NCBI GenBank assembly: GCA_021108295.1
Contig: JAIORF010000102.1
Span: forward strand, 391,041 to 455,040
Source: a bacterium
Lineage (GTDB): Bacteria > Patescibacteriota > Dojkabacteria > SC72
DNA length: 64,000 bases
Direction of reading: 5' to 3'
Positions 24,369 through 63,416 of this stretch are shown in pieces; the first letter of the stretch is position 1; each line of letters opens with the position of its first letter. The notes beneath the pieces are model-generated. The model worked only from the letters and a program-made list of their open reading frames with translations. It was not told the DNA's origin and did not search any database. A program made the translations under genes and the position numbers.

Positions 24369-24404
24369 ATACCCTCACTGTTAAAATTGTATACTCTAAA
24401 TATC

Positions 24405-25577: not shown

Positions 25578-25636
25578 TTCATTAGTAATTAATAATTTAT
25601 ATTGTTAACTATATAAAAGATATTTGTCTTTGGATA

Positions 25637-26695: not shown

Positions 26696-26696
26696 A

Positions 26697-27818: not shown

Positions 27819-27822
27819 AAGC

Positions 27823-32881: not shown

Positions 32882-32901
32882 TGGAAGGGTTCGTGAAGAT
32901 A

Positions 32902-33996: not shown

Positions 33997-34022
33997 TCCT
34001 GTTATTATATCAATTTACAAAA

Positions 34023-36080: not shown

Positions 36081-36089
36081 TAGTAACTA

Positions 36090-37418
36090 CTATACATTAC
36101 CAATACCTTTATACACAAATCCCTTCTCTCTTGCTTCTTCTTTATCAAAAATGTTTCTACCATCTATAATTATTGGTCTATTACCCATTTGCTTTAACAT
36201 ATCATCATAGTTTAGTGCCTTATACTCATCATGCCCTGTCATCAAAATGACAGCATCTTTACCATCAAGCATCTTCCATATCTCCCCCTTATACTCTTTG
36301 ATAAATGAATCATGTACTTCAAATTTTACACCATTTTCCTTAAGTTTCTCCATTAAAGGTTCACTAGGAGTATTTCTATCATCATCTGAATTTGCATCAT
36401 ATGCATAACCCAAGACTAAAACATTTACATCTTTAATACTCTTACCACTTTCCTTTACTGCATCTTCAAAAAGCTCATACATATGTAAAGGCATAAAGTC
36501 GTTAATATGTCTTGCGATAGGTATAAGTTTAGGATTTACAATATCTCTAACCTCATGTATTAAGAGCCAGGAGTCTTTAGGTATACAGTGTCCTCCAACA
36601 CCAGCACCTGGGTAGTGCATCTGTCTTAGAGCCTCTGGTCTTGTATCTGTAACCTTCTTACAGTTATTAATAAACTCTCTCACCTTCCAAACATTCGCAC
36701 CATACGCTTCACACAATAAAGCCATTTCATTAGCAAATGCAATCTGTACATCCCTATATGTATTCTCTCCTGCTTTTACTATCTCTGCGGTAATACAATC
36801 TGTCTCTTGTAACTCTCCTTGTACAACATTCTTATATAATTCCTTAACCACTTTAGCAGACTCAGGAGTCCAACCACCAATCACTCTGTTGTAATATCTA
36901 ATATTCTCTAGTAAATGACCCGGCATCAATCTCTCTGGGCAATTAGCAAGATAGAAGTCTTTCCCTGCCTCCATACCTGATTCTTTTTCCAATACTGGCT
37001 TTACAACATGTTCCATTGTACCTGGAGCAATTGTAGATTCTATAATAACGGTTACGCCTTTCTTCATATTTTCCCCAACACTCTTTAATGCACTTTTAAG
37101 ATTTTCGTAAGTAGGTTTCTTATTTTCTTCTGCTACAGGTGTTTGTACAGCAACTATTATGTAATCTGCTAATTTGTACTCACTCATATCTGAAGTAGCT
37201 CTGAAATTCCCCTTTTCAAAAACCTTCTCTACTAATTCATCTAAACCAGGCTCTTGACCTTTTATTGGATTCTCTCCTTCATTTAATTTCTTAACTCTGT
37301 CTTCTAAAATATCAAATCCTATTACATCGAAACCTGCGTCAGCAAAAAGCATAGCTACAGGATATCCAACATATCCAAGACCACAAATACCAACAATTTT
37401 CTTACTGTTATCTGACAT
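36090..37418 (-). CDS. Nucleotide-sugar 6-dehydrogenase (WbpA/WecC-like UDP-GlcNAc/ManNAc dehydrogenase)
   Basis: 442 aa. N-terminal NAD fold IVGICGLGYVGYPVAMLFADAG. Catalytic-Cys region GGHCIPKD. Confidence 0.8.
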   Translation of the reverse strand: MSDNSKKIVGICGLGYVGYPVAMLFADAGFDVIGFDILEDRVKKLNEGENPIKGQEPGLDELVEKVFEKGNFRATSDMSEYKLADYIIVAVQTPVAEENKKPTYENLKSALKSVGENMKKGVTVIIESTIAPGTMEHVVKPVLEKESGMEAGKDFYLANCPERLMPGHLLENIRYYNRVIGGWTPESAKVVKELYKNVVQGELQETDCITAEIVKAGENTYRDVQIAFANEMALLCEAYGANVWKVREFINNCKKVTDTRPEALRQMHYPGAGVGGHCIPKDSWLLIHEVRDIVNPKLIPIARHINDFMPLHMYELFEDAVKESGKSIKDVNVLVLGYAYDANSDDDRNTPSEPLMEKLKENGVKFEVHDSFIKEYKGEIWKMLDGKDAVILMTGHDEYKALNYDDMLKQMGNRPIIIDGRNIFDKEEAREKGFVYKGIGNV

Positions 37419-37435
37419 ATATTTAAATATTTAAC

Positions 37436-38542
37436 TTATTTCTTGGAAAGCTCTACTATCTTATCTGCTATCAAGCTAACATCGTCTTCTGTAACAAAAG
37501 GATTCACAGGAAGTGATAATACTTGTTTAGACATCCTCTCTGAAACAGGAAAGTCTCCTTCCTTGTACCCCATCTTTCTAAAATGCTCATGTAGATGTAG
37601 AGGTTTAGGATAATACACACCACAGCCAATATCATTAGATTTCAAGAATTCCATTAACTCGTCTCGTGTATGACCAAACTCATCTACAACCCTAAGGGTA
37701 TATTGATGATAAACGTGCCTATTCCCTTTCAAAGCTTTAGGTAATATCAAACCTTTAACATTAGAAAGTGCTTCTGATAATAACTCTGCATTTCTAATCC
37801 TTGTCTTTGTAATGTAATCTTCCTTTTTCATTTGTTCAACACCTAGAGCAGCTACAATATCAGTCATTCTGTAATTATGACCTAACTCTAGGTATTCATA
37901 CCGTACAGAAGCATCTTGTCCATGATGTCTAAATATTCTCGCTTTCCTCGCTATTTCATCATCATTTGTAACTAACATTCCACCTTCTCCAGTTGCAATA
38001 TTTTTCGTTGCATAGAATGAGAAAGTTGCAACATCTCCAAAATTTCCTGCCTTTATACCACCTTGCTCAGCCCCAACTGCTTGACAGGCATCCTCTAATA
38101 TACCCAACCCATGAGTATCAGCGATTTTCTTAATCTTGTCATATTTATAAATCTGACCGTACAAATCTACAGGTATTATAGCTTTCGTCTTTTTACTAAT
38201 CTTTTCCTCTATTTTCGCAGGATCAATACAAAAATCGTCTTCAGCAATATCCACGAAAACCACCTTACCACCTTCCATAACGATAGGGTTAGCAGTAGCT
38301 ACAAATGTAAATGGTACAGTAATTACTTCATCACCTTGCTTAACACCAAGAGCTCTAACTCCACTATGTATTGCAGTCGTACCATTTGAAAAGGCAACAG
38401 CATGTTTTACACCACAGAATTTCGCAAACATTTCTTCAAACTCTTTTGTTTTAGGACCTTGTGCAATCATCCCAGATTTTAAAACTTCAACAACTGCATC
38501 TATTTCTTCTTGTCCAATTAGTGGTTTTGAAATTGGAATCAT
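37436..38542 (-). CDS. DegT/DnrJ/EryC1/StrS-family PLP-dependent sugar aminotransferase (WbpE-like)
   Basis: 368 aa. PLP-lysine region FSFYATKNIATGEGGMLVTND. Confidence 0.8.
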   Translation of the reverse strand: MIPISKPLIGQEEIDAVVEVLKSGMIAQGPKTKEFEEMFAKFCGVKHAVAFSNGTTAIHSGVRALGVKQGDEVITVPFTFVATANPIVMEGGKVVFVDIAEDDFCIDPAKIEEKISKKTKAIIPVDLYGQIYKYDKIKKIADTHGLGILEDACQAVGAEQGGIKAGNFGDVATFSFYATKNIATGEGGMLVTNDDEIARKARIFRHHGQDASVRYEYLELGHNYRMTDIVAALGVEQMKKEDYITKTRIRNAELLSEALSNVKGLILPKALKGNRHVYHQYTLRVVDEFGHTRDELMEFLKSNDIGCGVYYPKPLHLHEHFRKMGYKEGDFPVSERMSKQVLSLPVNPFVTEDDVSLIADKIVELSKK

Positions 38543-38560
38543 ATTTGTCTAAATAATAAA

Positions 38561-42593: not shown

Positions 42594-45500
42594 CTACTTC
42601 AACACAACATCCATATTAACAATCATTGGAGATTTTTCCGTCTTCTCTATTGCCCCTCCGGACAAAGACTCGCCATTAGATACAATACTCAAACTATAAT
42701 CCCCTGGCTTAATCACAAACCTATACCTCCCCTTCACATCCGTAATTCTCTCTCCAACAGTCTCTTCAAACTCCCTCTCTTTAATAACTACCTTTACACC
42801 CTCCAACACATTACCCTGTCCATCCATCACAACCCCATACCTAATTCTCTTCTCAAAGGAATTAATTACTAAAAGTGTAGACAAAAGACCATAGATTACC
42901 AATATCAAAAGATTAATAATACTAGCATCCTGCTGATAGATGACAAGTGAGTATACAAATAGTCCTACAAAAACAACAAACTTCAACAACATAATCCACA
43001 CAGAACCCCTAGACAAAAGACCTACAACAAACTTCTTTCCAAAAGAAGCATCAATAGGATCAATTGGAATAGCCACAACAGACTCTACATCCGTACCACT
43101 AATATGAAGACTCCCTGTATACACATTAGAAATATTGCGATCTGTAGAAGTAGTAATCACACTAGACGGGAAATCAAAACCTGGCTTCCTTACATGCAAA
43201 GTATAGTTACCCGGTTCTAGATCACCATAGAACTCCCCAAAACTGCCTGTCACCATTGTCTCCACAACCTTGCCCTCCATATCTATAACCCTAATAATAG
43301 CTCGAGCAATAGGCTCCTTAGTAAGTGAATCGTAAACAAAACCATACTCCAATTCTGCCTTCTTCCTTCTAAAGAGATTCAAAAGACCAATCAAAGCCCT
43401 CAACATATAATATGGAAGCGTATTCAGTGAGACAAGTAGTAATGACAATGCTGCAACGGTAGTTGCCAAGGAAACGATTGCATCAACATTCAAACCAACC
43501 TCTCCATCCTCATCAACTTCTGTTATCAATTCAATCAACGGATCTAAAATAGACTCTTCTTCACACTCCGTATACTCATACTCACAAAAGTTGGAACACA
43601 TCACACTACCACCCACATACTTCTCATCCATCTCCAAACAAAGCGGTAACTCACCCTCCATCTCAGGATCACACTCCTCACCATCATCCAATACTCCATT
43701 ACCACAAAGCTCCTCTTCCTCAGGAGATGTAAATCCAGAAACTACAATATTACTACCCAATACAGACCTACCGTCATCAATAGTAGCCCTAATATTGTAA
43801 GTCCCAGAACACCAAGCTGTTGTTCCAATTACACTCTCTCCACTAATTATCTCCGTAGGAATATCAAATTCAAAACAGTAACTAGCATCACCCCCACCAA
43901 CTGCACGATATGCATTAACCACTATATCACCATTCCAGTTAGGAGTTAGTCCAAGCTCATCCAACATTAAAACTTCTGTATCGAAATCTCCACCCACAGG
44001 AGCAGTTGGAGGATAATCAATATTTAGTTCAGATGTAAGAAACGGATCCTCACCATAGGTTGCATAACTAATTGAAATTCCCAAGACAACAGGAGTGTCC
44101 TCACCCACCTTATCTAACACAAGCTTAATCTTCATCTGACAATCTGAAGTTGGGAAATCTACTGTACCACCAATCTCTACAGGATACCAATTCACTCCAT
44201 TATCATTTGAAACAAAAGCATCAATATTATTAACCAATGCTCCAGTAATACTATTCAACGTAAAGTGATCTACATTGACCTCACTAGCCTGAACCTCTGG
44301 CCATATAATCACATCTGACTCAGGTTCAAAACTTCGAACAATATCTAAACGATATAAACCAGCCCCCGGCATCATCAACCACGCAATATCAGCACCAGGA
44401 GTATCAAATATCATATCAAACGCCACATACGACCCATACAGCTCTCCAGGGAATGTATAACTAACAACCGTGTCATCAAAAGCATCATCATATGTAGCAT
44501 TATAATCAAACGCAAATATTGAACCCTCACGAGTTGAGATTAATAGCTCCTCCGTACCTTTCTCAGTATTATCAATCCAAGCAATCTTTAATGCCCTCTG
44601 ACTACCAAGCTCTGCCTTAGGAAAGAATGGATAATAAGCATCACTATTCAAAGTCGCAAGATCATCAACATAGGTAGCACTTACTCCATCATCACCCGCA
44701 AACCAATACCAACCATTATCATCAACTAAAATATCAAAAATTGGTCCAGCCGTATAATCACCGGAACTTACAACACAAACATCATCAGCCTTATTAGATG
44801 GTGTTCCATTATCATCACAATATGACACATTATCTGCAGAGTAATCACCTGCCACAACCCTATTTCTTGCCTCATCAAGCAGTAAGGATACATGATTCCC
44901 ACCAATACCATCCCCGGCATCCCAAGTTGTCGCAACATCATCTGCAATAGTATCAATAGTACCCTGTGTATCAATCCATATCATCTCTGCAGTAGAAGGC
45001 CCATGTATCGACTCATTCGCAATGATTGCGTATATACAAGGATATGCACCACGAGTATCAATTTGAACATATAACAAAGATGAATTAACACCCAAAAGAA
45101 TCGAGTAATTATCATAGCTATCATCAGATGTATCAGTAAGAGTATTTCCAACAGAATATATTGTTAGTGGATAGTCATTCTCTAATTCTATTGCCAAAAA
45201 CTTATTTCCCCCATGCTCAAATTCTGTAATACCAATCATTTTTACTGCCTCTGCCCATACTGCTGGATACCTAACCAAAGCATCTGTTGAAACATTGTAA
45301 TATCCAAATGTCCCATCATCGAACCTTAACCACAAATTCCCATCAAGAGCTTCATCTACTCCGATTAATTTCTCACCATATAAAGCTCCGAAATCATTTT
45401 TGTTTGTATATAACTCAAGCTCCAAGTCAAACTGATAATCCAGAGGTAATCTAATCCTTGAACGACCTACGATGGAAGAAGTATTTACACTATCAACACT

Positions 45501-48500: not shown

Positions 48501-48635
48501 GGCATCATAACAACTTTGATGATAAGCCGCATAGGCTAGGTGTTTGTATGTCGAAAAGAAGGCAAAAGATACCACAAATGAGAAAGTAAGAACGGCTAAA
48601 GAGAGTATTTTAAAATCTAACTTGTCTTGTTTCAT
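42594..48635 (-). CDS. Giant (2013 aa) secreted surface protein: signal peptide, Cys-rich N-domain, 2x tandem ~300-aa [Ig-like + LamG/ConA-like lectin] repeats, Ig-like and beta-rich domains, CGNGxxDDGEECD Cys-rich repeat, C-terminal [TM / CarbopepD_reg-like / TM-TM / CarbopepD_reg-like] anchor
   Basis: Uninterrupted 6 kb ORF. N-terminal hydrophobic signal. 17 Cys in residues 40-130. Residues ~161-461 and ~462-762 are ~70% identical repeats containing a LamG-like core (WLLGT...YIDGVEDN...FAIGARPTGG). Myxococcus-type Cys repeat CGNGVLDDGEECD. C-terminus is homologous to the 8663..10777 product. Confidence 0.7.
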   Translation of the reverse strand: MKQDKLDFKILSLAVLTFSFVVSFAFFSTYKHLAYAAYHQSCYDACKADSAMPSDEDCGIACDTTNSFSECSISMRNVITTEGDAYGYCDSHSDYGKRECSDMCYSMQGETFFDCLDYCMAGCDPDCVDEYEIDYGVGFYAVFVMFDFCGELPMDGTYPTITLDQDFYFRSFTGSVNITGSVTDNVDIVAVNLYSVDSDSTTPCTLFGVFPTQTFSCDTENLLIDKSYKFEVKATDSVPYETIEDVLVELDVDNEEDLVALWRFDDDVNWMAEDINSMTPTNHGASQNSDGYTTDSLECSGGYITIDDSAELLSFDEADSSFKVEAMIKSNTYALSHSRIAGKYNAADNENSWLLGTDTTRVYCAIWIDGTQRSVNSTSALNIDEWYNVGCEWGAGDRQLRVYIDGVEDNVLDLSGVAGSLASSTNDFAIGARPTGGNRFDGLVDNVKVYSCETVDITDPVITLDQDFYFRSSTGSVTITGSVTDDTDIASVNLYSVDSNNTTSCTLFGVFPTQTFSCNTEVLSTDQSYKFEVKAMDAATNEAIEDVLVELDIDNDKDLVALWRFDDDLNWLAEDINSMSPTNHGATQNSDGYTTDSLDSSLGYMTVDDSAEVLSFDQDDSAFMVEAMIKHDSYAGDHVRIAGKYNATNSENTWLLGTHNTSQVYCAVWINGIHQGLYSTATLNVDQWYSVGCKWSAGDEQLRVYIDGVEDNTLDLSGAENPLASSTNDFAIGARPTGGSRFEGLIDNVKIYTYEIGDGHAPKIEFDPIDDPSAITDTTPTISGSITDPDLCEYAEYLVLDTSYLWAPDDIDDYTWTEFLPADGVWSTEEEDFSITLDEFTTEGGYHIYIRARDVYENASFYYHNGWIINYSIDSDYIMANRLFTLEFIDNSPPTIEPNEVQPNPSINKDLDILGYVEDYVSDTRSAIDTVEYSLDGGAWESVTILTSSGDGFEKEFMVDLSNLSIAEHSVRIKASDVEGNETADDYQVCYDDCMNTGLQDEEMCECSCDSHKKQSIQTVTFEIIEADVPDPELEEHTITFEDNSSVDSVNTSSIVGRSRIRLPLDYQFDLELELYTNKNDFGALYGEKLIGVDEALDGNLWLRFDDGTFGYYNVSTDALVRYPAVWAEAVKMIGITEFEHGGNKFLAIELENDYPLTIYSVGNTLTDTSDDSYDNYSILLGVNSSLLYVQIDTRGAYPCIYAIIANESIHGPSTAEMIWIDTQGTIDTIADDVATTWDAGDGIGGNHVSLLLDEARNRVVAGDYSADNVSYCDDNGTPSNKADDVCVVSSGDYTAGPIFDILVDDNGWYWFAGDDGVSATYVDDLATLNSDAYYPFFPKAELGSQRALKIAWIDNTEKGTEELLISTREGSIFAFDYNATYDDAFDDTVVSYTFPGELYGSYVAFDMIFDTPGADIAWLMMPGAGLYRLDIVRSFEPESDVIIWPEVQASEVNVDHFTLNSITGALVNNIDAFVSNDNGVNWYPVEIGGTVDFPTSDCQMKIKLVLDKVGEDTPVVLGISISYATYGEDPFLTSELNIDYPPTAPVGGDFDTEVLMLDELGLTPNWNGDIVVNAYRAVGGGDASYCFEFDIPTEIISGESVIGTTAWCSGTYNIRATIDDGRSVLGSNIVVSGFTSPEEEELCGNGVLDDGEECDPEMEGELPLCLEMDEKYVGGSVMCSNFCEYEYTECEEESILDPLIELITEVDEDGEVGLNVDAIVSLATTVAALSLLLVSLNTLPYYMLRALIGLLNLFRRKKAELEYGFVYDSLTKEPIARAIIRVIDMEGKVVETMVTGSFGEFYGDLEPGNYTLHVRKPGFDFPSSVITTSTDRNISNVYTGSLHISGTDVESVVAIPIDPIDASFGKKFVVGLLSRGSVWIMLLKFVVFVGLFVYSLVIYQQDASIINLLILVIYGLLSTLLVINSFEKRIRYGVVMDGQGNVLEGVKVVIKEREFEETVGERITDVKGRYRFVIKPGDYSLSIVSNGESLSGGAIEKTEKSPMIVNMDVVLK
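46350..48155 (-). repeat. Intragenic tandem duplication, 2 x ~903 bp (codons ~161-461 and ~462-762 of the giant protein)
   Basis: The two protein repeat units align end-to-end at ~70% identity. On the + strand the two ORF-track shadow ORFs (46393..46578, 47299..47640) are near-identical copies offset by ~906 nt. Confidence 0.8.
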
Positions 48636-48780
48636 TATTATTACATAATTGTATATTAATATATACTATTATGAATTTAGGAAGCTTGCAAATCCTTTTT
48701 ATATCTCATAGCACATAAAGCACTTAATTATCTTTCGTTTTTCTGCTAATATTAATTATATAAGTTCATACATTAATAAT

Positions 48781-49962
48781 ATGATTAAACATAAATTAAG
48801 GATATTAGGCATCTTACCTATACTTTCCATACTTCTTCTCTGTGGTTTTATAACCCAAAGTAGTGCTGCACAATTTGAAGCAGGAGACTACACACTAGAA
48901 CAATCAGAGATAATAGAAGAAAACCTCTATATTTCTGAAGCACAAACCATCACAATTGATGGAGTAGTAGATGGAGACCTCTTCGCAGCAGCAGAGAATT
49001 TAACAATTTCTGGAACAATTACAGGAGATATCTATGCAGCTGGTCGTATTATAGATATTTCAGGTAATGTCTATGGTAATGTGTTTTTAGCAGCACAGGC
49101 TGTAGATATTAGTGGAAGTATTGCACAAAACACTACTATTGCTACTGCGTTCTCAGATGTTTCCGGTACTATTGGAAGGGATTTATTGGTTTTTGCATCT
49201 GAAAGTGATATCTCTGGAAAAGTTATGGAAGATGTACGAGTGTTTACTTCTATATCTACCATTTCAGGAGCAATTAAGGGTGAGAGTATGATATTTGCTT
49301 CTACATCTACAATAGACAAGAATTTAGCTGTTGGAGAAATATATGAAAATATTGGTAGTGAGATAGAAGAAGAAGTACTTCTAAATGTCGAGAAGGATTC
49401 AAAGAATGGTTTCTTTGATTTCAATCCAGTTGGTGCAATCATGGGTTTTATTGCCATGTATATTGTAGGTATAGTGTTAATTTACGTAGCACCTGTTAAG
49501 GCTCTTAAGATTGAGAAAAAGGTAAATGGTTCTCTATCTGAATTCTTCTATAGCTTCTTGATAGGTCTCGCTGTTGTATTATTTCTTCCATTCCCATTAA
49601 TAATTCTCTCCTTTACAGTAATTGGTGCTCCCTTAGCTTTGATAATAAGTGCAGGATTAGTCTTTGTATTAATCTTTGGTAAACTTTGGGTTGAGAGTGC
49701 TATTGGTTACAAAATACTAGGAAGTGCGAGTAAAAAGGATGATAAGAGATTCCTGTCATTGCTAGTAGGTAGAAGTTTAACTACAATTATTAACTTCATA
49801 CCTTTAATCAGAACTTTTTACAAATGGACTCTTGGTTTAGTTGCAGTTGGAGCAGTAGTGAGAATGAAGTATGATTGTTTCAAAGATAGGAAGACAAAAA
49901 AGGTAGCTACAAAGAAGAAGGTTACTAAAAAGAAAGCTCCCAAGAAGAGTAGCAAGAAATAG
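48781..49962 (+). CDS. Membrane protein with N-terminal bactofilin-like (DUF583/CcmA-type) beta-helix repeat domain, C-terminal polytopic TM region and Lys-rich tail
   Basis: 393 aa. Signal/TM, then degenerate repeats (...ISGTITGDIYAAGRIIDISGNVYGNVFLAAQAVDISGSIAQNTTIATAFSDVSGTIGRDLLVFASESDISGKVMEDVRVF...) typical of bactofilin beta-helices. Then ~5 TM helices and KKKVATKKKVTKKKAPKKSSKK. Confidence 0.5.
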   Translation: MIKHKLRILGILPILSILLLCGFITQSSAAQFEAGDYTLEQSEIIEENLYISEAQTITIDGVVDGDLFAAAENLTISGTITGDIYAAGRIIDISGNVYGNVFLAAQAVDISGSIAQNTTIATAFSDVSGTIGRDLLVFASESDISGKVMEDVRVFTSISTISGAIKGESMIFASTSTIDKNLAVGEIYENIGSEIEEEVLLNVEKDSKNGFFDFNPVGAIMGFIAMYIVGIVLIYVAPVKALKIEKKVNGSLSEFFYSFLIGLAVVLFLPFPLIILSFTVIGAPLALIISAGLVFVLIFGKLWVESAIGYKILGSASKKDDKRFLSLLVGRSLTTIINFIPLIRTFYKWTLGLVAVGAVVRMKYDCFKDRKTKKVATKKKVTKKKAPKKSSKK

Positions 49963-49979
49963 TTTGGGTTATAAGAATG

Positions 49980-50005
49980 TGGGAGCTAAGGCTCCCATGT
50001 TTTAT
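49980..50005. terminator. Bidirectional hairpin terminator between convergent genes (TGGGAGC-TAAG-GCTCCCA, followed by TGTTTTAT)
   Basis: Perfect 7-bp stem with a 4-nt loop at 49980..49997 and a T-rich tract after it. It sits 18 nt after the bactofilin-like gene stop and overlaps the last codons of the dCMP-deaminase gene. Confidence 0.45.
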
Positions 50006-50528
50006 CATTAAACAAGGATTTACAATCCCCTATCTTTCCTAAAAACACATCTACTTGTATACCTGCTTCAAGAAGCATAAGGATGGATTCACTAAGATCT
50101 TTCTTCCAATCAGATTGTGTTCGAATAGCTTTTTCATAATGGAACACCACCCTTTTTATACCTGAGTTTATAATCCCATTTGTACAGGCAGGACATGGTA
50201 CCCATGTAGCATATATCGTACTGTCCTGAAGTGCTTTTCCAATCTTTGCTGCATTGTATATTGCATTTCTTTCTGAATGATCTTGGTATATGTATTTAGC
50301 AGGAGAAGAACTTCTCATTTTTGTAATCTCTACACCTTCTGGGAAAATGTTTGTACCTCTTGAGAGCAATTTTTCATCTTTGGTAATTACAGCACCAGCC
50401 CAAGTACTTTGATCTGTGGAATTAGCCTCTGCATAAAGGTATGCCTCTCTAAGCATGTTTCTCCCAAAGCCAGAGTTCACTACACCAATACTGCCTTCTT
50501 CAATTAGTATATCTAAAAAGTGTTTCAT
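49986..50528 (-). CDS. dCMP/cytidine deaminase-family zinc enzyme (ComEB/dCMP deaminase-like)
   Basis: 180 aa. HSERNAI (H-x-E) and PCPACTNGI (PCxxC) zinc-binding motifs. Confidence 0.7.
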   Translation of the reverse strand: MKHFLDILIEEGSIGVVNSGFGRNMLREAYLYAEANSTDQSTWAGAVITKDEKLLSRGTNIFPEGVEITKMRSSSPAKYIYQDHSERNAIYNAAKIGKALQDSTIYATWVPCPACTNGIINSGIKRVVFHYEKAIRTQSDWKKDLSESILMLLEAGIQVDVFLGKIGDCKSLFNDKTWEP

Positions 50529-50550
50529 ACTTCATTGTATACAAAATGCT

Positions 50551-51300
50551 TTATTCTGCCAAGAGAGAATTTATTACCTCTTCGAATGCATCAAAAGGAT
50601 ATGCTCCAGCAATTAATTTGCCTACCACATTACCATCTTCATCCAATATTCCTACTACAAAACCTGGAGTACCTTCTACGCCTGCATCTGCACCTGCTTG
50701 GTAGTCTGTATCTATTGCATCTCTATACTTATCGCTTTCTACACACTCTTGTATATTAGCACCAAGACCATTTGCTACATCGTATAGGGCTTCTATACTA
50801 TCTAGCATGAATGCTTCCTTGTGATATTTAAGATATGTTTCTAACCCTTCTTGTTCAAATACACACTTACCTCCCATAGCTTGAGCATCGGCTAATTCAC
50901 CATGGATTGAATATTCTCTATACACATATATTGCTTCTCCAGTCTCTATATATTTTTCAACTATGGCAGGATATTCTTCATCTACATGTCTTTGACAGTA
51001 ACCACAAAGGTAATCACTGTATTCTACAATAGCTATCTTAGCAGTTTCTTTGTCCCCAGAGTATGGAGCATCTCCAATATCTGTACTTGCACTTGGGAAT
51101 TGATATTGACCATCAGAATCCATTTCTTCACCTGCTACACTCCCAATATTGTCAGTATTTATACTGTCGTTATTATCCTTACTTGCAAAGAATATTGTAA
51201 TTGCAATTATTACTCCTGCTATTATTATTGCTCCTGGTATTGCAAATTGATCTAGACTGATGACTATTTCATCATTGTTGATTTTCTTTTTCTTGGACAT
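50551..51300 (-). CDS. Membrane-anchored DsbA-like thiol:disulfide oxidoreductase (thioredoxin fold)
   Basis: 249 aa. N-terminal TM helix. CxxC active site in YSDYLCGYCQRH. Confidence 0.65.
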   Translation of the reverse strand: MSKKKKINNDEIVISLDQFAIPGAIIIAGVIIAITIFFASKDNNDSINTDNIGSVAGEEMDSDGQYQFPSASTDIGDAPYSGDKETAKIAIVEYSDYLCGYCQRHVDEEYPAIVEKYIETGEAIYVYREYSIHGELADAQAMGGKCVFEQEGLETYLKYHKEAFMLDSIEALYDVANGLGANIQECVESDKYRDAIDTDYQAGADAGVEGTPGFVVGILDEDGNVVGKLIAGAYPFDAFEEVINSLLAE

Positions 51301-51366
51301 GTTATAAGCCTGTAAATTTATTTAATCAGTCATTATACCATCTTTTAAAAAATGGTATACTAAATT

Positions 51367-52212
51367 GTGGAGAGAGATGTAATTGACAAAAAAGAAGATT
51401 CTACTGCTCTACATATATTCACACTTTTTGTTGTTGTGTTAATTGTCGGCTTACCTATTTACGGGTATTTCAAACTTAAGCCAGATACTGTTGTTAATCA
51501 AGAAGAAAGAATTGAAGAAGAAAAGAGTATAGATGGGGAGGTTTTAGATGAGGAGAGCACTCCTCTTGTCGGGAAGGGATACATAGAAGAGATAGTTGAG
51601 ATAGAGGGGCAGTGGGCATATATTGTTGTTCCTGCATATATTGATATTGAGAACTTACCTACACTTGTGATTTACAATCATGGTTCTCTTACCTTTGTAG
51701 AGGAGGAGATGGATGAGGAGTTTAAGTGTAAGCTTTTGGAGTATGGGGAGGCTTTCACTGTACATAATTATACATTTGCTGTTTCTAATGCTCATGGTGT
51801 TAATTGGGGAAGCCTAGATTCGATTAATGATAATTATAGTATGTATGAATATATCAAGGAGAAGTATGGGATACAGGAGGGGATATATGAGATAGGGTTT
51901 AGTATGGGGGGACTACCTGCTATGAATTTTGCTACTACCTATCCTGAATTAGTCGATAAAATTGTACTACTAGCTCCTACTACAAGAACTGGAGAGTGGG
52001 ACAAAGATAGGGTTGAGAAGATAGAGGGTATAGATATTAAGATATGGCATGGGGATAGTGATATTAATGTTGGTTTAGTATATACACAGAATTGGGTAAA
52101 TAAAATAGAAAGTTTTGGAAAGGATATAGACTTAGTCATTCTTGAGGGTCAAACTCATTGGGATATAGATACAGAGTATATTGATGAAATACTAGAGTTT
52201 TTCTCTGATTAG
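51367..52212 (+). CDS. Alpha/beta-hydrolase-fold esterase/lipase-like protein
   Basis: 281 aa. N-terminal TM. Nucleophile elbow GFSMGG (G-x-S-x-G). Confidence 0.55.
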   Translation: MERDVIDKKEDSTALHIFTLFVVVLIVGLPIYGYFKLKPDTVVNQEERIEEEKSIDGEVLDEESTPLVGKGYIEEIVEIEGQWAYIVVPAYIDIENLPTLVIYNHGSLTFVEEEMDEEFKCKLLEYGEAFTVHNYTFAVSNAHGVNWGSLDSINDNYSMYEYIKEKYGIQEGIYEIGFSMGGLPAMNFATTYPELVDKIVLLAPTTRTGEWDKDRVEKIEGIDIKIWHGDSDINVGLVYTQNWVNKIESFGKDIDLVILEGQTHWDIDTEYIDEILEFFSD

Positions 52213-52626
52213 TTTTGCAATATTTGACAAACACAGATCTTCTTTCCTATTCCTGACTTCCTCATCTGATAGTATAGGTCCATTCCCCAGACAGAGTTTA
52301 AATTCATCGTATCTTGGAATAATATGAATATGGTAGTGAAAAACACTCTGTCCAGCTTTAGTTCCATTGTTTTGTAAGATATTGAAGTCTTCCACTTTGA
52401 ATGTTTTAGATATAGTTTTCGTAATCTTTTGAGCAACACCATACATATCTTTTATTAAGTCTTCAGGAACATCAAAGATATTCTCGTAATGTTCTTTAGG
52501 TATTACTAGGATATGACCTTTTTCAATTGGAAAATTATCTAGAAATGCGAAAATATCCTCATCTTCATATATCTTATGAGAGGGTACTTCCCCATTAGCC
52601 ATTTTACAAAAGATACAGTCTTCCAT
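52192..52626 (-). CDS. HIT-family nucleotide hydrolase/transferase
   Basis: 144 aa. Histidine triad HYHIHIIPR and N-terminal CIFCKM. Confidence 0.8.
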   Translation of the reverse strand: MEDCIFCKMANGEVPSHKIYEDEDIFAFLDNFPIEKGHILVIPKEHYENIFDVPEDLIKDMYGVAQKITKTISKTFKVEDFNILQNNGTKAGQSVFHYHIHIIPRYDEFKLCLGNGPILSDEEVRNRKEDLCLSNIAKLIREKL

Positions 52627-52627
52627 A

Positions 52628-52831
52628 TTACTCCTCTATGACAATTGCACTTACAGGGCATATACTTTGTGATTCTTTTACCTTACTTTCTAATTCCTTA
52701 GGAATATCCTTACCTTTTAATTCTTCTTTTACATCTACACTACCATTTGCCTTCATCTCAAATACTTCTGGACATACTGCTACACAGGATGCACATACTA
52801 CACATTTTGCTTGGTCTATTGAAACTTTCAT
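52628..52831 (-). CDS. Small single-cluster [4Fe-4S]/[3Fe-4S] ferredoxin
   Basis: 67 aa. CVVCASCVAVCP ... CP motif, as in Pyrococcus/Desulfovibrio-type monocluster ferredoxins. Confidence 0.7.
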   Translation of the reverse strand: MKVSIDQAKCVVCASCVAVCPEVFEMKANGSVDVKEELKGKDIPKELESKVKESQSICPVSAIVIEE

Positions 52832-52887
52832 CCTTCATGAGTTAAAAATTATCTATATATTCTTACAAATATTTGCAAACTTATCAA

Positions 52888-53400
52888 TTACCACACCTCC
52901 CTATGAATCTTTTCCTCTTGATATGCTTTCTCACTATGTGGAATTACTTCATTCTTAGGATAACCAATTGCCATAATACAAAGAACTCTGTAATCCTCTG
53001 GAATATTTAAAATCTTTTTTACAGACTTCTCCTTCCTACCTTCCTTAGAATCTTTACCTTTTACATTCCCCCAACAACAACCTAAACCTTGATTAGTAGA
53101 CTCTAAATAGATATGACCTGCAGCTAAACTACAATCCTGTACCCACATATCACTATCTGATGGCTTAGCAGTGATCACAATAGAGATAGAAGATGTTGAG
53201 ACAAACCTAGTCCACATTCCAACCTTACTCAACTTCTTCAAAACTTCTTTATCTTTCACAACCACAAATTCCCAAGGACATTTATGATTACCACTAGGAG
53301 CTACCATTGCAGCATTGAGTATTTCCTTAATCTGTTGATCTGAGACCTCTTGCTCTGTAAATTTTCTTACACTTCTTCGTTTTTTGAAAAGTTCATTCAT
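52888..53400 (-). CDS. Nitroreductase-family flavoprotein
   Basis: 170 aa. N-terminal KRRSVRKF...APSGNHKCPWEFVVV, typical of the nitroreductase fold. Confidence 0.7.
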   Translation of the reverse strand: MNELFKKRRSVRKFTEQEVSDQQIKEILNAAMVAPSGNHKCPWEFVVVKDKEVLKKLSKVGMWTRFVSTSSISIVITAKPSDSDMWVQDCSLAAGHIYLESTNQGLGCCWGNVKGKDSKEGRKEKSVKKILNIPEDYRVLCIMAIGYPKNEVIPHSEKAYQEEKIHREVW

Positions 53401-53444
53401 ACCTATATCTTTACAAATATGTATATAAATTGCAATTACTCTTT

Positions 53445-53717
53445 CTAGTTAGGTATACGTATTGCATCACCATTGATTATTGCATTTGTAATCTTTCGTA
53501 GAGTACTAACCAAATCTCTTTGATATTGACTCTGTGAAAGACCCATTCTTTTTGCAGCATTAGTCTGAGAAAGGTTCTCTACATATCTAAGCCTCATGGT
53601 TTCCAACTCTTCAGTAGTGACAACTACCTCATTTAACTTCCTAAGTGGAACACCATGAGGTTTATAGTATATATTGTTATAACCAAATTTTACTCTTCTT
53701 CTATGTCTTTTTCTCAT
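53445..53717 (-). CDS. DUF134 (UPF0251) family predicted DNA-binding protein
   Basis: 90 aa. MRKRHRRRVKFGYNNIYYKPHGVPLRKLNEVVVTTEELETMRLRYVENLSQ...GDAIRI follows the family pattern of a basic N-terminus, a GxPLREL-like segment, an HTH and a C-terminal GxAIRI. Confidence 0.7.
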   Translation of the reverse strand: MRKRHRRRVKFGYNNIYYKPHGVPLRKLNEVVVTTEELETMRLRYVENLSQTNAAKRMGLSQSQYQRDLVSTLRKITNAIINGDAIRIPN

Positions 53718-53723
53718 AATTGA

Positions 53724-53933
53724 TTATAAACAAAGTTTACCTTTCATTGTCATACCACACTTAGGGCATTTCTTTTCTGTACAAGGAATTCCTCTCTCGG
53801 AATTTTCTGTGTGTCCACATTCTGGACATGTACAAACTTTGAGGGTATTTCCTTTTCCTCTTGCTCTTCCTCTGCCTCTGCCTCTACCACAACCTCTTCC
53901 AAAGAATCCTTTTCTTAAAAATCTTCTTCTCAT
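53724..53933 (-). CDS. Small Arg/Gly-rich zinc-ribbon protein (resembles DUF5320-type proteins that accompany DUF134 genes)
   Basis: I trimmed the track ORF (53724..54008) to start at MRRRFLRKGFFGRGCGRGRGRGRARGKGN. The trimmed-off 5' part is a palindrome-rich intergenic region. C-terminal CTCPECG...CPKCG four-Cys zinc ribbon. Confidence 0.45.
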   Translation of the reverse strand: MRRRFLRKGFFGRGCGRGRGRGRARGKGNTLKVCTCPECGHTENSERGIPCTEKKCPKCGMTMKGKLCL

Positions 53934-53952
53934 ATTTTTATATATTAATTTA

Positions 53953-54012
53953 ATTGGGTATTTACCCAATACAATATACCACGCCACCCCATATGGGTCA
54001 ATACCCATATGG
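53953..54012. promoter_or_regulatory. Divergent promoter/operator region with inverted repeat ATTGGGTA-TT-TACCCAAT and two copies of the palindrome CCCATATGG(G) spaced 16 nt centre-to-centre
   Basis: Read directly from the sequence: 53953..53970 is an 8+8 inverted repeat. 53988..53997 (CCCATATGGG) and 54004..54012 (CCCATATGG) are self-complementary. They lie between the divergently transcribed Zn-ribbon/DUF134 operon and the CsoR-like/thioredoxin operon. Confidence 0.4.
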
Positions 54013-54055
54013 CATATTTGACAAACTCACCATATATGCTATACTCCAGTACAGT

Positions 54056-54292
54056 ATGAGTAAAAATGAAGAACTACAAAATCGAATATCAAAGATTGAA
54101 GGACAAATAAAAGGAATCCAGAAGATGATCGATAGAGGTAGAAATTCTTTGGATATCGTACAACAGATAGTGGCTGTCAACTCTGCTCTTAAAAAGGTCG
54201 GTATTGAAATACTTAAAGAGGAAACAGCTACTTGTGTCAATGACAAGAAGAAGTTTGAAACATTACTTGAGTCATTATTTAGGTTAAAATAG
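54056..54292 (+). CDS. CsoR/RcnR/FrmR-family (DUF156) small helical transcriptional repressor, atypical (lacks first-position Cys)
   Basis: I trimmed the track ORF (53954..) to MSKNEELQNRISKIEGQIKGIQKMIDRGRNSLDIVQQIVAVNSALKKVGIEILKEETATCV. This matches the R-x-x-RIEGQ-x-x-G...D-x-Q-x-A-x-ALD-KV signature of the family. Confidence 0.55.
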   Translation: MSKNEELQNRISKIEGQIKGIQKMIDRGRNSLDIVQQIVAVNSALKKVGIEILKEETATCVNDKKKFETLLESLFRLK

Positions 54293-54325
54293 TTAATAAT
54301 ATATTTTATTTTTTATTCAATAAAC

Positions 54326-54634
54326 ATGGAAACAATATTAACAGACTCAAATTTTAAAGAAGAAATATCTTCTGGATTAGTATTAGTAGACTTCTGGGCA
54401 CCTTGGTGCGGACCTTGTAGAATGCTTACTCCTATTATCAAGGAAGTAGCAAAAGAGGTTGAGGGTGTAAAGGTTGGTAAGCTTAATGTAGATGAGAACC
54501 CACAGACTGCACAAGAGTTTCAGATTATGAGTATACCTGCTGTTATGCTTTTTAAGGACGGAAAGGTTGTAGAAACCCTAATTGGTTTGAGACCTAAAGA
54601 GGCATACCTAGAGGCTATAGAGAGTCATAAGTAG
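54326..54634 (+). CDS. trxA: Thioredoxin
   Basis: 102 aa. WCGPC active site. Thioredoxin-typical length and FKDGKVV motif. Confidence 0.85.
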   Translation: METILTDSNFKEEISSGLVLVDFWAPWCGPCRMLTPIIKEVAKEVEGVKVGKLNVDENPQTAQEFQIMSIPAVMLFKDGKVVETLIGLRPKEAYLEAIESHK

Positions 54635-54639
54635 ACTAC

Positions 54640-55281
54640 TTACCTCCAAATTGTAATATTTTGCATAAAAAATGGGAAGACATTCTCTATCTCATACTTC
54701 CTTACACCTATTGTATCTAGCATTTCTCTAATCTCCCTTGGTCTATACGCAGCCCTTATAGATTTAAAAAGACCATTTTGTACGGGTACCCAATGCAACC
54801 ACCATACTCTTTTAAGGTCAGATATAAGTAATACCCCATCATCATTCAAATATTGCATTAGGTTCTCAATCATCTCTTTTGAATCTTCCCAATGGTGTAG
54901 CGAGAATGTTGAGTAGATTAAATCAAATTTACCCAGACTTTTTAACAACCCCTCACTTCCAATATCACCCTTAACAAAACGTACCTGAGATTCTACCCCA
55001 TTCTCTTTTATATATTCCTCTCCCACTATAATCATATCGGTAGACACCTCTATTGCTGTGATATCTATATTTGCATTCTGTTTCGCGATTATAGTAGCTA
55101 AGGTTCCGGTACCAGCCCCTATCTCTAAATATCTTCCTTCTACATCAAGAGTAGTTAGCTTATTCATAAATCCACGGAATCTCATCTTTGCAGAGTTCTC
55201 TGCTTCTTTTGCATATTTTCTTGCACCTTCAATATTGAAGAAAGTTTCATTTTGGTCCTTTTCTACTATTCTTTTAAACAT
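54640..55281 (-). CDS. Class I SAM-dependent methyltransferase (Methyltransf_11/25-like, small-molecule or RNA MTase)
   Basis: 213 aa. Motif I LEIGAGTGTLA. Acidic residue after beta2. No DNA-MTase DPPY/FxGxG motifs. Confidence 0.7.
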   Translation of the reverse strand: MFKRIVEKDQNETFFNIEGARKYAKEAENSAKMRFRGFMNKLTTLDVEGRYLEIGAGTGTLATIIAKQNANIDITAIEVSTDMIIVGEEYIKENGVESQVRFVKGDIGSEGLLKSLGKFDLIYSTFSLHHWEDSKEMIENLMQYLNDDGVLLISDLKRVWWLHWVPVQNGLFKSIRAAYRPREIREMLDTIGVRKYEIENVFPFFMQNITIWR

Positions 55282-55299
55282 ACTTCTTAATTAAAGATT

Positions 55300-55827
55300 T
55301 TATTTTGTTGAAGATAACAATTCTCCTATTTTACGTTCTAGTTCTTGAAAGTAGATGCCTTCTTGATGCTTAATATGGAGAATCTCTATTCCCACTACCT
55401 CCAAAGCTCTGTTTACAAACCTATCCCTTGTCTGCCTGTCTTTCCTGTTATGTGTTTTCCCATCATATTCAATAGCAATAACTGGTTTCAAATATTGTTT
55501 TTCAAAAACAACAAAATCAACTGTTTTCCTATTAATCTTATTCCAATATGCGAAAGATTCCTTTCTTGAAGAACTAACTTTTATAATCTTACTCAACAAG
55601 ACCTGTGGAAAAACAATATAACCCGCAGGAATAATTGGTTGCAAACTCTCAAAAAACTCTCTTTCGGGAGTATTTAGTAAAAAGTCTTTTCTCTTGTATG
55701 GGAACCTCTCCCTCTCTTGTGGAAGAGATTTTAAATTAGAGAATTCCTTCTTGAGAAAAGTTATTACAAATACAGCAACTATGATACCAATTATCATTAA
55801 CCATGCTTTTTGCATATATTGCAGCAA
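55300..55827 (-). CDS. Membrane-anchored DUF2726-like (restriction-endonuclease-fold) protein
   Basis: 175 aa. N-terminal TM. VDFVVFEK...PVIAIEYDGKTH resembles the conserved D...E-x-D-G/K core of DUF2726 nuclease-like domains. Confidence 0.4.
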   Translation of the reverse strand: MLQYMQKAWLMIIGIIVAVFVITFLKKEFSNLKSLPQERERFPYKRKDFLLNTPEREFFESLQPIIPAGYIVFPQVLLSKIIKVSSSRKESFAYWNKINRKTVDFVVFEKQYLKPVIAIEYDGKTHNRKDRQTRDRFVNRALEVVGIEILHIKHQEGIYFQELERKIGELLSSTK

Positions 55828-55888
55828 TTATTTTATATAACACTAAGAACAATAAGACTTTCTCTCCCATCATCAATATCTCTTCATA

Positions 55889-57364: not shown

Positions 57365-57367
57365 AAT

Positions 57368-58773: not shown

Positions 58774-58858
58774 ACCTTCTCCAACTTAATTTACATAATA
58801 TTAGTTTAGCACAAATTGGGGACTTGATAAAAACTCTCAGTAATCCTAGTATATATAT

Positions 58859-60178: not shown

Positions 60179-60195
60179 TATCAAACAGAATATCT

Positions 60196-63380: not shown

Positions 63381-63416
63381 TATACTAACACAGTTAACTT
63401 ATCATACTGCTATACC

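What the first reader, a model, noticed from the sequence alone, without database searches (positions are those of the whole stretch)
42594..48635. Giant 2013-aa surface protein with a recent in-frame tandem duplication of a ~300-aa Ig+LamG lectin-like unit
This is the largest gene in the window. It encodes a signal peptide, a 17-Cys N-terminal domain, and two adjacent ~301-aa units that are ~70% identical (residues ~161-461 and ~462-762; DNA ~48155..47253 and ~47252..46350). Each unit contains a concanavalin-A/LamG-like core (WLLGT...YIDGVEDN...FAIGARPTGG). Downstream follow Ig-like and beta-rich domains, a Myxococcus-type Cys repeat (CGNGVLDDGEECD) and a double-CarbopepD_reg membrane anchor. 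This architecture fits a carbohydrate- or host-binding adhesin, and duplicated lectin units would add binding sites, which matters most for an episymbiotic lineage. The repeat also makes the gene an assembly-error hotspot.
Basis: partly seen in the sequence, partly recalled or inferred. Interest (0 to 1): 0.7.

Follow-up and report, generated by a model that had tools for sequence, protein, structure and literature searches.

The report
Giant lectin-repeat surface protein, CPR bacterium
This is a real 2013-residue, membrane-anchored surface protein of an uncultured ultra-small (CPR/Patescibacteria-type) bacterium that carries two lectin-like Ig+LamG units; the duplication is old and kept similar by gene conversion, not recent and not an assembly error, so it is a fairly ordinary example of the giant host-recognition proteins these bacteria are known for.

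Summary
ORF 42594..48635(-) encodes 2013 aa with two adjacent ~301-aa units (aa 155-455 and 456-757) that are 72% identical in protein and ~79% in DNA. Each unit is an Ig/Fn3-like domain plus a Laminin_G_3 domain (Pfam E 5e-32). The C-terminal membrane anchor with two CarboxypepD_reg domains is also confirmed.

Several parts of the interpretation fail:
- **Not recent.** A syntenic ortholog (72% identical, another MAG) has the same two units and the same junction. Synonymous divergence between the copies is 0.66. Informative sites favour within-genome homogenisation 62:18:11, which indicates gene conversion.
- **Not an assembly hotspot.** The longest exact run shared by the copies is 34 nt, and an independent assembly gives the identical gene.
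- **Cys count.** The N-terminal domain has 13 Cys, not 17.
- **Cys repeat.** The 'Myxococcus' repeat has no profile support.

New findings:
- The protein belongs to an unnamed family of at least 14 giant proteins with 2-5 LamG modules.
- The central region is a seven-bladed beta-propeller plus two beta-sandwiches (AF2 pLDDT 83).
- The ~290-aa anchor is shared with a conserved ~700-aa protein found in MAGs labelled Dojkabacteria or Saccharibacteria.
- The anchor's two beta-sandwich domains are predicted to be cytoplasmic.

An adhesin or glycan-recognition role is plausible but untested.

The parts
42594..48635 (-). Whole gene, 2013 aa, 222 kDa. The ectodomain is very acidic (pI ~4.05; D+E 19%, K+R 4%).
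48528..48635 (-). N-terminal Sec-type signal peptide or anchor (aa 1-36). The hydrophobic core is aa 10-28, with a likely A-x-A cleavage site 'LAYA|AY'.
   Evidence: Hydropathy; the cleavage site is read from the sequence and is an inference.
48174..48527 (-). Cys-rich N-terminal tip domain (aa 37-154). It has 13 Cys and five C-x3-C motifs arranged as twin-CX3C pairs. No Pfam match. It is the fastest-evolving part (56% identity to the ortholog).
47271..48173 (-). Repeat unit 1 (aa 155-455). Ig/Fn3-like domain aa 155-254 (window 47874-48173) plus LamG domain aa 255-455 (window 47271-47873).
46365..47270 (-). Repeat unit 2 (aa 456-757). Ig-like domain aa 456-555 (window 46971-47270) plus LamG domain aa 556-757 (window 46365-46970).
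45609..46364 (-). Ig-like domain pair plus a Cys cluster (aa 758-1009; 'APKIEFDPIDDPSAITDTTPTISGSITDPD...'). It is conserved across the family and is the most conserved region against the ortholog (83%).
   Evidence: (weak OmpL47-type hit)
44334..45371 (-). Seven-bladed beta-propeller (approx. aa 1089-1434).
43734..44321 (-). Two beta-sandwich domains after the propeller (approx. aa 1439-1529 and 1536-1634). The first carries the family motif 'VSNDxGxxWYP...FPTSD'.
43491..43715 (-). Cys-rich membrane-proximal stalk (aa 1641-1715), including CGNGVLDDGEECD. The last 6 of the protein's 41 Cys lie here.
   Evidence: no profile match
42597..43490 (-). C-terminal anchor module (aa 1716-2013). It comprises a kinked TM1 (aa 1717-1754), an RRKK motif, CarboxypepD_reg 1 (~aa 1762-1860), a TM2-TM3 hairpin (aa 1878-1926) and CarboxypepD_reg 2 (aa 1931-2013). 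It contains no Cys.
8663..10777 (-). Paralogous 704-aa protein in the same window. Its anchor module is 35% identical over 286 aa (E 2e-43), but its ectodomain is short and different.

Best explanation
The gene encodes a Sec-exported, disulfide-rich surface protein that is anchored in the membrane by its C-terminus. The organism is a CPR/Patescibacteria-type bacterium; the anchor-sharing relatives are MAGs labelled Dojkabacteria, Saccharibacteria or Microgenomates.

The protein is one member of an unnamed family of giant proteins with a fixed order of parts. From the distal tip to the membrane these are:
- a signal peptide;
- a twin-CX3C Cys-rich tip;
- 2-5 LamG lectin-like modules, mostly preceded by Ig-like spacers;
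- two Ig domains;
- a seven-bladed beta-propeller;
- two beta-sandwiches;
- a Cys-rich stalk;
- a three-pass membrane anchor with two transthyretin-like (CarboxypepD_reg) domains.

The most likely function is recognition of, and attachment to, surface glycans or proteins of a host or partner cell. The LamG modules and the propeller would act as the binding elements, held away from the cell on Ig spacers.

The two Ig+LamG units come from an old duplication that predates the split from the nearest known relative. Both copies are under purifying selection. They have been partly homogenised within each genome by gene conversion. Homogenisation is strongest in the Ig spacers, while the LamG cores are freer to diverge.

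Shown: the domain content, the duplication and its age, the existence of the family, and the shared anchor. Inferred: the binding function, the anchor topology, and the host interaction.
For: - **Domains.** Pfam finds Laminin_G_3 x2, CarboxypepD_reg x2 and a DUF5581 Fn3-like domain. AF2 predicts a propeller plus sandwiches at pLDDT 83, and the folds match other propellers.
- **Export and anchoring.** There is an N-terminal hydrophobic signal and three C-terminal TM segments. All 41 Cys lie before residue 1692. A DsbA-like gene lies two genes upstream in both genomes.
- **Family.** An exhaustive profile search with the unit found 6990 hits, 33 of them below 1e-30. P0010 and P0012 align at 37-40% over ~1560-1850 aa, and P0011, P0014, P0020 and P0027 at ~28% over more than 1000 aa. 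Thirteen listed proteins share the central region. LamG copy number is 2-5.
- **Age and conversion.** The ortholog has both units. Informative sites split 62 concerted: 18 orthologous: 11 cross. dS is 0.66 for W1-W2 against 1.0-2.1 between genomes. In the ortholog, dS between its copies is 0.43 in the Ig part but 1.40 in the LamG core. dN/dS is 0.24.
- **Divergence gradient.** Identity to the ortholog is 56% at the tip, 63% in unit 1, 74% in unit 2 and 83% in the Ig pair, as expected for an exposed interaction surface.
- **Literature.** CPR genomes encode giant membrane proteins that are inferred to bind hosts (PMC8080830, PMC11809585).
Against: - No ligand, host or expression data exist.
- LamG and beta-propeller folds are generic and do not prove carbohydrate binding.
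- No structure of the unit was predicted, and no solved structure matches it by sequence.
- The anchor model has low confidence (pLDDT 59.5).
- The gene is followed on the same strand by a ~22-kb glycan-biosynthesis cluster, which fits a structural or glycosylated envelope role equally well. That adjacency is absent at the two family members checked.
- Independent duplications in the two lineages cannot be formally excluded from two genomes.
Confidence: 0.6

Rival explanations
1. It is a structural envelope protein: an S-layer-like or canopy protein, possibly glycosylated by the adjacent cluster. In this reading it builds the cell's outer coat rather than acting as a specific adhesin.
For: - The ectodomain is very acidic (pI ~4.05) and has a C-terminal TM anchor, as in some archaeal S-layer proteins (the comparison is from general knowledge).
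- The gene is followed on the same strand, 88 nt downstream, by about 21 glycan-synthesis genes: GT4s, WbpA/B/E/D-like enzymes, two flippase-like proteins and an epimerase. No terminator-like site was predicted on the gene's strand in that 88-nt gap.
- The same anchor is carried by a ~700-aa protein with full-length orthologs at 19 of the loci found in species-representative MAGs, mostly labelled Dojkabacteria or Saccharibacteria. That suggests a general envelope-anchoring device.
Against: - There is no SLH or other S-layer domain hit.
- The family is patchy and fast-evolving at the tip, and copy number varies. That is more typical of interaction proteins than of lattice formers.
- The glycan cluster is not next to the homologs P0010 and P0012.
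- The 19 N-x-S/T sequons are not clearly above the ~13 I estimate by hand from residue frequencies.
Confidence: 0.2
2. It is a transmembrane sensor or receptor. The propeller and LamG ectodomain would bind an external glycan, and the event would be relayed through the three-pass anchor to the two cytoplasmic beta-sandwich domains.
For: - The best Foldseek matches of the central region are the periplasmic glycan-sensing domains of the Bacteroides hybrid two-component systems BT4663 and BT4673, and there is a weak Reg_prop hit.
- The charge pattern across 20 homologs places both CarboxypepD_reg domains inside the cell. Net charge is -2.0 before TM1, +3.0 after it, +3.9 before TM2 and +1.85 after TM3.
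- These domains have no Cys, against 41 Cys in the ectodomain.
Against: - There is no kinase, response-regulator, DNA-binding or other signalling domain.
- The Reg_prop hit is far below its cut-off (10.7 vs 20.4 bits).
- CarboxypepD_reg domains have no known signalling role (general knowledge).
- The topology is inferred only from the positive-inside rule.
Confidence: 0.12
3. The second unit is an assembly duplication artefact, or the gene is a collapsed or expanded mis-assembly.
For: Only the general fact that tandem repeats can be mis-assembled. One JGI contig ends inside the gene, and its fragment P0006 starts at aa 1147.
Against: - The copies differ at about 1 in 5 nucleotides, and the longest shared exact run is 34 nt.
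- They keep frame, and their differences are biased to synonymous sites (dN/dS 0.24).
- An independent ENA assembly gives an identical gene.
- The ortholog in another MAG has the same two-unit structure.
- The fragment P0006 breaks at aa 1147, not in the repeat.
Confidence: 0.01

Closest known systems
Giant membrane or surface proteins of CPR bacteria: Vampirococcus lugosii (1392-4163 aa, with WD40/PKD and similar domains; PMC8080830) and the Patescibacterium danicum FhaB-domain proteins (PMC11809585)
   Same: Very large, membrane-associated, multi-domain proteins in reduced-genome CPR bacteria. They are built from generic interaction folds (beta-propeller, Ig-like, lectin-like). They have few or no full-length homologs and are inferred to mediate host attachment.
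   Different: The domain set and order differ: a twin-CX3C tip, Ig+LamG units and a single propeller. There are no FhaB or DUF2341 domains. The C-terminal three-TM/double CarboxypepD_reg anchor did not turn up in the text passages I searched in those two papers. No sequence homology to those proteins was tested.
Pfam Laminin_G_3 (PF13385), Concanavalin A-like lectin/glucanase superfamily
   Same: Both units match the profile well above the gathering threshold (111.5 bits; stretches include aa 617-755).
   Different: This is a superfamily-level assignment only. No solved structure is detectable by sequence, and ligand specificity is unknown.
Periplasmic sensor domains of Bacteroides hybrid two-component systems (BT4663, PDB 4a2l; BT4673, PDB 3ott): Reg_prop propellers plus a Y_Y_Y domain
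Repeat-rich bacterial adhesins that undergo concerted evolution or copy-number change of tandem domains (general knowledge; literature surveyed only superficially)
   Same: In-frame tandem domain units are homogenised within a gene, and copy number varies among homologs (2-5 LamG modules).
   Different: The units here are long (301 aa) and already ~21% diverged in DNA. This is slow evolutionary turnover, not a contingency or phase-variation locus.

Membership tests
Laminin_G_3 / ConA-like lectin-glucanase superfamily (PF13385) | Profile match above Pfam's gathering score | tested here: met
   111.5 bits against a cut-off of 27.6, E 5.1e-32, two stretches.
Laminin_G_3 / ConA-like lectin-glucanase superfamily (PF13385) | Curved beta-sandwich (jelly-roll) fold of the module | not tested
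No PDB relative is found by sequence.
Laminin_G_3 / ConA-like lectin-glucanase superfamily (PF13385) | Carbohydrate or Ca2+-dependent ligand binding | not testable with these tools
   Requires glycan arrays or binding assays.
CarboxypepD_reg (PF13620) transthyretin-like domain | Profile match above the gathering score | tested here: met
   63.8 bits against a cut-off of 32.3, two stretches at aa 1765-1824 and ~1934-1986. AF2 gives beta-sandwiches there, but at low confidence.
Myxococcus cysteine-rich repeat (Pfam DUF4215 / TIGR02232) | Profile match to the repeat model | tested here: not met
   No hit in Pfam or NCBIfam for the whole protein, nor for the isolated 65-aa segment at E<=10. Only a motif-level resemblance remains.
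HTCS-type Reg_prop / Y_Y_Y periplasmic sensor | Reg_prop and Y_Y_Y profile matches | tested here: not met
   Reg_prop 10.7 bits (cut-off 20.4) and Y_Y_Y 11.8 bits (cut-off 26.6).
HTCS-type Reg_prop / Y_Y_Y periplasmic sensor | Fold: seven-bladed propeller followed by a beta-sandwich | tested here: inconclusive
HTCS-type Reg_prop / Y_Y_Y periplasmic sensor | Cytoplasmic histidine kinase and response-regulator modules | tested here: not met
   No such Pfam or NCBIfam domains.
Sortase-anchored (LPXTG) Gram-positive adhesins | C-terminal LPXTG motif followed by a TM segment and a positively charged tail | tested here: not met
   There is no LPxTG anywhere in the protein. Anchoring is by a three-TM module.
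S-layer proteins | SLH or other recognised S-layer domain | tested here: not met
   No such Pfam hit.
S-layer proteins | Lattice formation | not testable with these tools
   Would require cryo-ET or in vitro self-assembly of the purified ectodomain.
Unnamed giant-protein family defined here (P0001, P0010, P0011, P0012, P0014, P0020, P0027, P0041, P0054, P0061, P0071, P0099, P0150) | Collinear similarity over the Ig pair, propeller and first sandwich, plus at least 2 LamG modules N-terminal to them | tested here: met
Three-TM / double CarboxypepD_reg anchor module (shared with the ~700-aa p704 family) | Full-length alignment of the ~290-aa module, with the conserved 'G[FY]VY[DN]S.TK.P' motif after TM1 | tested here: met
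   35% identity to p704, E 2e-43. 23 loci were found in species-representative MAGs. Alignment A3 has 26 invariant columns.

The most novel reading that the evidence does not exclude
The C-terminal ~290-aa module may be a previously undescribed envelope-anchoring or coupling device, found so far only in CPR MAGs (labelled Dojkabacteria, Saccharibacteria, Microgenomates or unclassified). It is a three-pass membrane anchor whose two transthyretin-like (CarboxypepD_reg) domains sit in the cytoplasm, not outside. In this reading it physically couples interchangeable giant ectodomains, and a conserved ~700-aa protein, to an intracellular partner. The ectodomains would diversify by keeping the Ig spacers homogenised through gene conversion while the LamG binding cores diverge, giving a built-in way to evolve new host specificities.
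Probability: 0.2. Interest if true: 0.6.

Novelty: new variant of a known kind. Interest (0 to 1): 0.38.

Why it matters
CPR/Patescibacteria are thought to live attached to other microbes, yet the molecules that recognise hosts are mostly unknown. This gene provides three things:
- a defined, recurrent family architecture, with a lectin-rich tip, a propeller and a lineage-specific anchor, that could be expressed and tested for host or glycan binding;
- a clear example of an old tandem domain duplication maintained by gene conversion, with spacers homogenised and binding cores diverging;
- a shared anchor module that could serve as a search handle for other surface proteins in these genomes.

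It does not change any general concept. Giant adhesin-like proteins in CPR are already expected.

Tried and rejected
- **The search for homologous proteins.** The word-index search performed poorly. The full protein returned only P0001 and P0002, the anchor alignment returned nothing, and the central-region alignment returned only the protein's own fragment P0006. The exhaustive HMMER search was what revealed the family.
- **Structure prediction with locus-derived sequences.** The anchor was then modelled with only 10 sequences and came out at low confidence (pLDDT 59.5), so I did not run a fold search on it.
- **Metagenome scans.** The scan with the unit found nothing. The scan with the central region found only weak partial matches to one beta-sandwich.
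- **PDB sequence search.** The unit profile found nothing. The anchor profile gave only weak CarboxypepD_reg-type hits (NOMO2, carboxypeptidase D).
- **Promoter and terminator scans.** Promoter-like sites were at chance level (29 found vs 28 expected). No terminator-like site was predicted on the gene's strand between the giant gene and the downstream glycosyltransferase, so operon structure is unresolved.
- **Link between the anchor and the neighbouring 'bactofilin-like' gene.** I considered that the cytoplasmic anchor domains might bind it. I rejected this because that protein has a signal peptide and TM helices and its beta-helix is probably extracellular.
- **Conserved association with the glycan cluster.** Rejected, because it is absent at P0010 and P0012.
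- **Literature.** Searches for this family or anchor in CPR or Dojkabacteria found nothing specific.


Full report
**1. Checking the observation**

The ORF at 42594..48635 on the minus strand is real. It has an ATG start, encodes 2013 aa, and is the longest ORF in the window.

A direct-repeat search finds DNA copies spaced 903/906 nt apart at 80-85% identity. At the protein level, aa 155-455 and aa 456-757 align end to end with a single one-residue gap at 72% identity. The local score is 1184, against 44.6 +/- 6.9 for 200 shuffles.

Pfam confirms the following:
- two Laminin_G_3 stretches (111.5 bits, E 5e-32);
- two CarboxypepD_reg stretches (63.8 bits);
- an Fn3-like DUF5581 hit in the first Ig part;
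- a near-threshold Big_7 hit in the second Ig part.

The Cys-rich domain before unit 1 has 13 cysteines, not 17. The 'Myxococcus-type' CGNGVLDDGEECD stretch matches no Pfam or NCBIfam model, even when scanned alone at E<=10.

**2. Is the duplication an artefact, and is it recent?**

It is not an artefact.
- The two copies differ at about one nucleotide in five, and their longest shared exact run is 34 nt.
- An independent ENA metagenome assembly (ERZ26872907 NODE_195) contains an identical gene. It differs from the window at just 1 of 12,042 aligned bases, and that base lies elsewhere.
- A JGI fragment of the gene (P0006) breaks at aa 1147, not in the repeat.

It is not recent.
- The only close homolog in 5.8 billion clustered proteins is P0001. 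It is 2018 aa long, 72% identical over its full length, and comes from MAG GCA_021107795.1. Its upstream neighbours are syntenic: a DsbA-like gene, a deaminase and a DUF8173 gene.
- P0001 has the same two units, with the same U1/U2 junction (V-D-I-x-D-P-x-I-T-L).
- In a four-sequence codon alignment (W1 and W2 from the window, O1 and O2 from the ortholog), informative sites support within-genome pairing 62 times. Orthologous pairing is supported 18 times and the cross pairing 11 times. In the Ig part and LamG N-terminal part (alignment columns 1-150) the counts are 44:7:5.
- Synonymous divergence is 0.66 between W1 and W2. For O1-O2 it is 0.43-0.58 in the Ig and N-terminal LamG parts but 1.40 in the LamG core. 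Between genomes it is 1.0-2.1.
- O1's LamG core carries 82 private substitutions, against 16-29 for the others.

The simplest reading is an ancestral duplication followed by gene conversion within each lineage. Conversion covered the whole unit in the window's lineage but only the Ig-proximal half in the ortholog. Independent duplications at identical boundaries remain formally possible. dN/dS of 0.24 between W1 and W2 shows that both copies are under purifying selection.

**3. What the protein is**

An exhaustive profile search with the unit against 1.84 billion representative proteins found 6990 hits. Of these, 1142 are below 1e-10 and 33 below 1e-30. Most of the 150 listed proteins are 1300-7400 aa long with several matched stretches.

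The top hits are collinear homologs of the whole protein. P0010 aligns at 37% over aa 159-2012 and P0012 at 40% over aa 425-1984. P0011, P0014, P0020 and P0027 align at about 28% over more than 1000 aa. Thirteen of the listed proteins share the central region.

The family architecture, from the N-terminus to the membrane, is:
- a signal peptide;
- a Cys-rich tip with twin C-x3-C motifs;
- 2-5 LamG modules, mostly with Ig-like spacers;
- an Ig pair;
- the central region;
- a Cys-rich stalk, in some members;
- usually the same C-terminal anchor.

A neighbour-joining tree of the LamG modules shows two old classes. Class A modules are N-proximal and class B modules are the last in the array. Most members have A followed by B. 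The window protein, P0001, P0010 and P0012 instead carry two class-A modules. That again places the duplication deep in the subfamily.

In P0014 two Ig spacers are 98% identical while the flanking LamG modules are 53-66% identical. In the ortholog the Ig parts are 86-94% identical while the LamG cores are about 50% identical. The recurring pattern is homogenised spacers with diverging lectin cores.

**4. Central region**

AF2 was run on aa 1010-1640 with a 12-sequence family alignment and gave pLDDT 83 and pTM 0.69. The model shows a seven-bladed beta-propeller (about aa 1089-1434) followed by two beta-sandwiches.

The fold is therefore secure. Kinship to the Reg_prop sensors is only a lead.

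**5. Anchor**

The last ~290 aa form this series of elements:
- a 37-residue hydrophobic stretch with a conserved Pro kink;
- an RRKK motif;
- the first CarboxypepD_reg domain;
- a TM-TM hairpin;
- the second CarboxypepD_reg domain.

The same module, at 35% identity (E 2e-43), ends a 704-aa protein elsewhere in the window, at 8663..10777(-). A scan of one genome per GTDB species found 23 loci with the module. Their records are labelled Candidatus Dojkabacteria, Saccharibacteria or Microgenomates, or simply 'bacterium'. Nineteen of them are full-length orthologs of the ~700-aa protein at about 40% identity. Two (L004 and L005) are truncated larger paralogs whose anchors are closest to the giant's. 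Five further matches in Bacteroidota and Chlorobiota covered only one CarboxypepD_reg domain.

The charge distribution across 20 homologs follows the positive-inside rule for an N-out, three-pass topology. Net charge is -2.0 before TM1, +3.0 after it, +3.9 before TM2, about 0 in the TM2-TM3 loop and +1.85 after TM3. The anchor has no Cys, whereas all 41 Cys of the protein lie in the ectodomain.

Both CarboxypepD_reg domains are therefore predicted to be cytoplasmic. That would be unusual for this domain type. It is an inference, because the AF2 model of the anchor has low confidence (pLDDT 59.5).

**6. Context and organism**

SecA at 14904..17807 marks a bacterium. NCBI labels the source only as 'bacterium', and the protein lies on a 472-kb contig. 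The relatives that share the anchor are CPR MAGs, so the CPR placement rests on these relatives and not on a marker-gene phylogeny.

Downstream on the same strand lies a ~22-kb glycan-biosynthesis cluster. No terminator-like site was predicted on the gene's strand in the 88-nt gap. That adjacency is absent at P0010 and P0012.

Identity to the ortholog rises from the distal tip to the membrane-proximal parts: 56% for the signal peptide and Cys-rich tip, 63% for unit 1, 74% for unit 2 and 83% for the Ig pair. This fits an exposed, rapidly evolving interaction tip.

**7. Function and rivals**

The most likely function (confidence ~0.6) is a surface recognition or attachment protein. Its LamG modules and propeller would bind glycans or proteins on a partner cell. 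This is in line with published inferences for giant CPR membrane proteins (PMC8080830, PMC11809585).

The rivals are:
- a structural or S-layer-like glycoprotein (0.2);
- a transmembrane sensor that uses the cytoplasmic domains (0.12);
- an assembly artefact (0.01).

None of the functional claims can be tested with sequence tools alone.

**8. Novelty and verdict**

The kind of object is known: a giant multi-domain adhesin-like surface protein in a CPR bacterium with repeated lectin modules. Three things appear to be undescribed, within the limits of my literature searches:
- the specific family architecture;
- the spacer-homogenised, core-divergent mode of repeat evolution;
- the three-TM/double CarboxypepD_reg anchor shared with a conserved ~700-aa protein.

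I rate it a new variant of a known kind, of moderate interest (0.38).

Noticed in passing
window 8663..10777 (-); tRNA-Lys(CTT) at 8557..8632 (-): A 704-aa secreted protein carries the same three-TM/double CarboxypepD_reg anchor as the giant. It has full-length orthologs (~40% identity, 690-725 aa) at 19 of the loci found in species-representative MAGs, mostly labelled Dojkabacteria or Saccharibacteria. Its ~400-aa ectodomain has no Pfam match. It may be a core envelope protein of this lineage.
   Followed up: partly
window 19985..42505 (-): A run of about 21 co-directional genes for surface-glycan synthesis lies directly downstream of the giant gene. It includes several GT4 and GT2 glycosyltransferases, a UDP-sugar dehydrogenase, a DegT-type aminotransferase, hexapeptide acetyltransferases, two GFO/IDH/MocA oxidoreductases (together resembling a WbpA/B/E/D-type diacetamido-sugar pathway), a UDP-GlcNAc 2-epimerase, and two Polysacc_synt_3 flippase-like proteins. 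Three large ORFs (615, 648 and 685 aa) have no Pfam hit.
   Followed up: partly
window 39786 (within ORF 39216..40244, -): This is the only difference in 12,042 nt between the window and the independent ENA assembly (L001 position 11850). It turns a Tyr codon of the second GFO/IDH/MocA oxidoreductase into a stop in the ENA contig, where the gene is called as two pieces (130 + 186 aa). It is either a nonsense polymorphism or a sequencing error.
   Followed up: partly
window 48781..49962 (+): A divergently transcribed 393-aa gene is annotated as a 'polymer-forming cytoskeletal protein' (DUF8173, with a weak bactofilin hit). The protein has a signal peptide, a repetitive beta-helix-like region, three or more TM helices and a Lys-rich C-terminal tail. 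It is probably an exported membrane protein rather than a cytoskeletal one. Its position next to the giant gene is conserved in the ortholog's MAG.
   Followed up: partly
window 50551..51300 (-): A DsbA/Thioredoxin_4-like protein lies two genes upstream of the giant gene in both genomes. It is a plausible oxidase for the 41-Cys ectodomain. The association was not tested beyond the synteny in two genomes.
   Followed up: no
P0014 (family member, 2440 aa, N-truncated), aa 227-328 vs 540-641: Two Ig spacers are 98% identical while the adjacent LamG modules are only 53-66% identical. This is an independent instance of the homogenised-spacer, divergent-lectin pattern, and it indicates recent conversion or duplication in that protein.
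   Followed up: partly
window 1..64000: GC skew is negative in 28 of the 32 2-kb windows (about -0.03 to -0.39), and most genes lie on the minus strand. This is consistent with one replichore and strong gene-strand bias. GC content is 29-39%.
   Followed up: no
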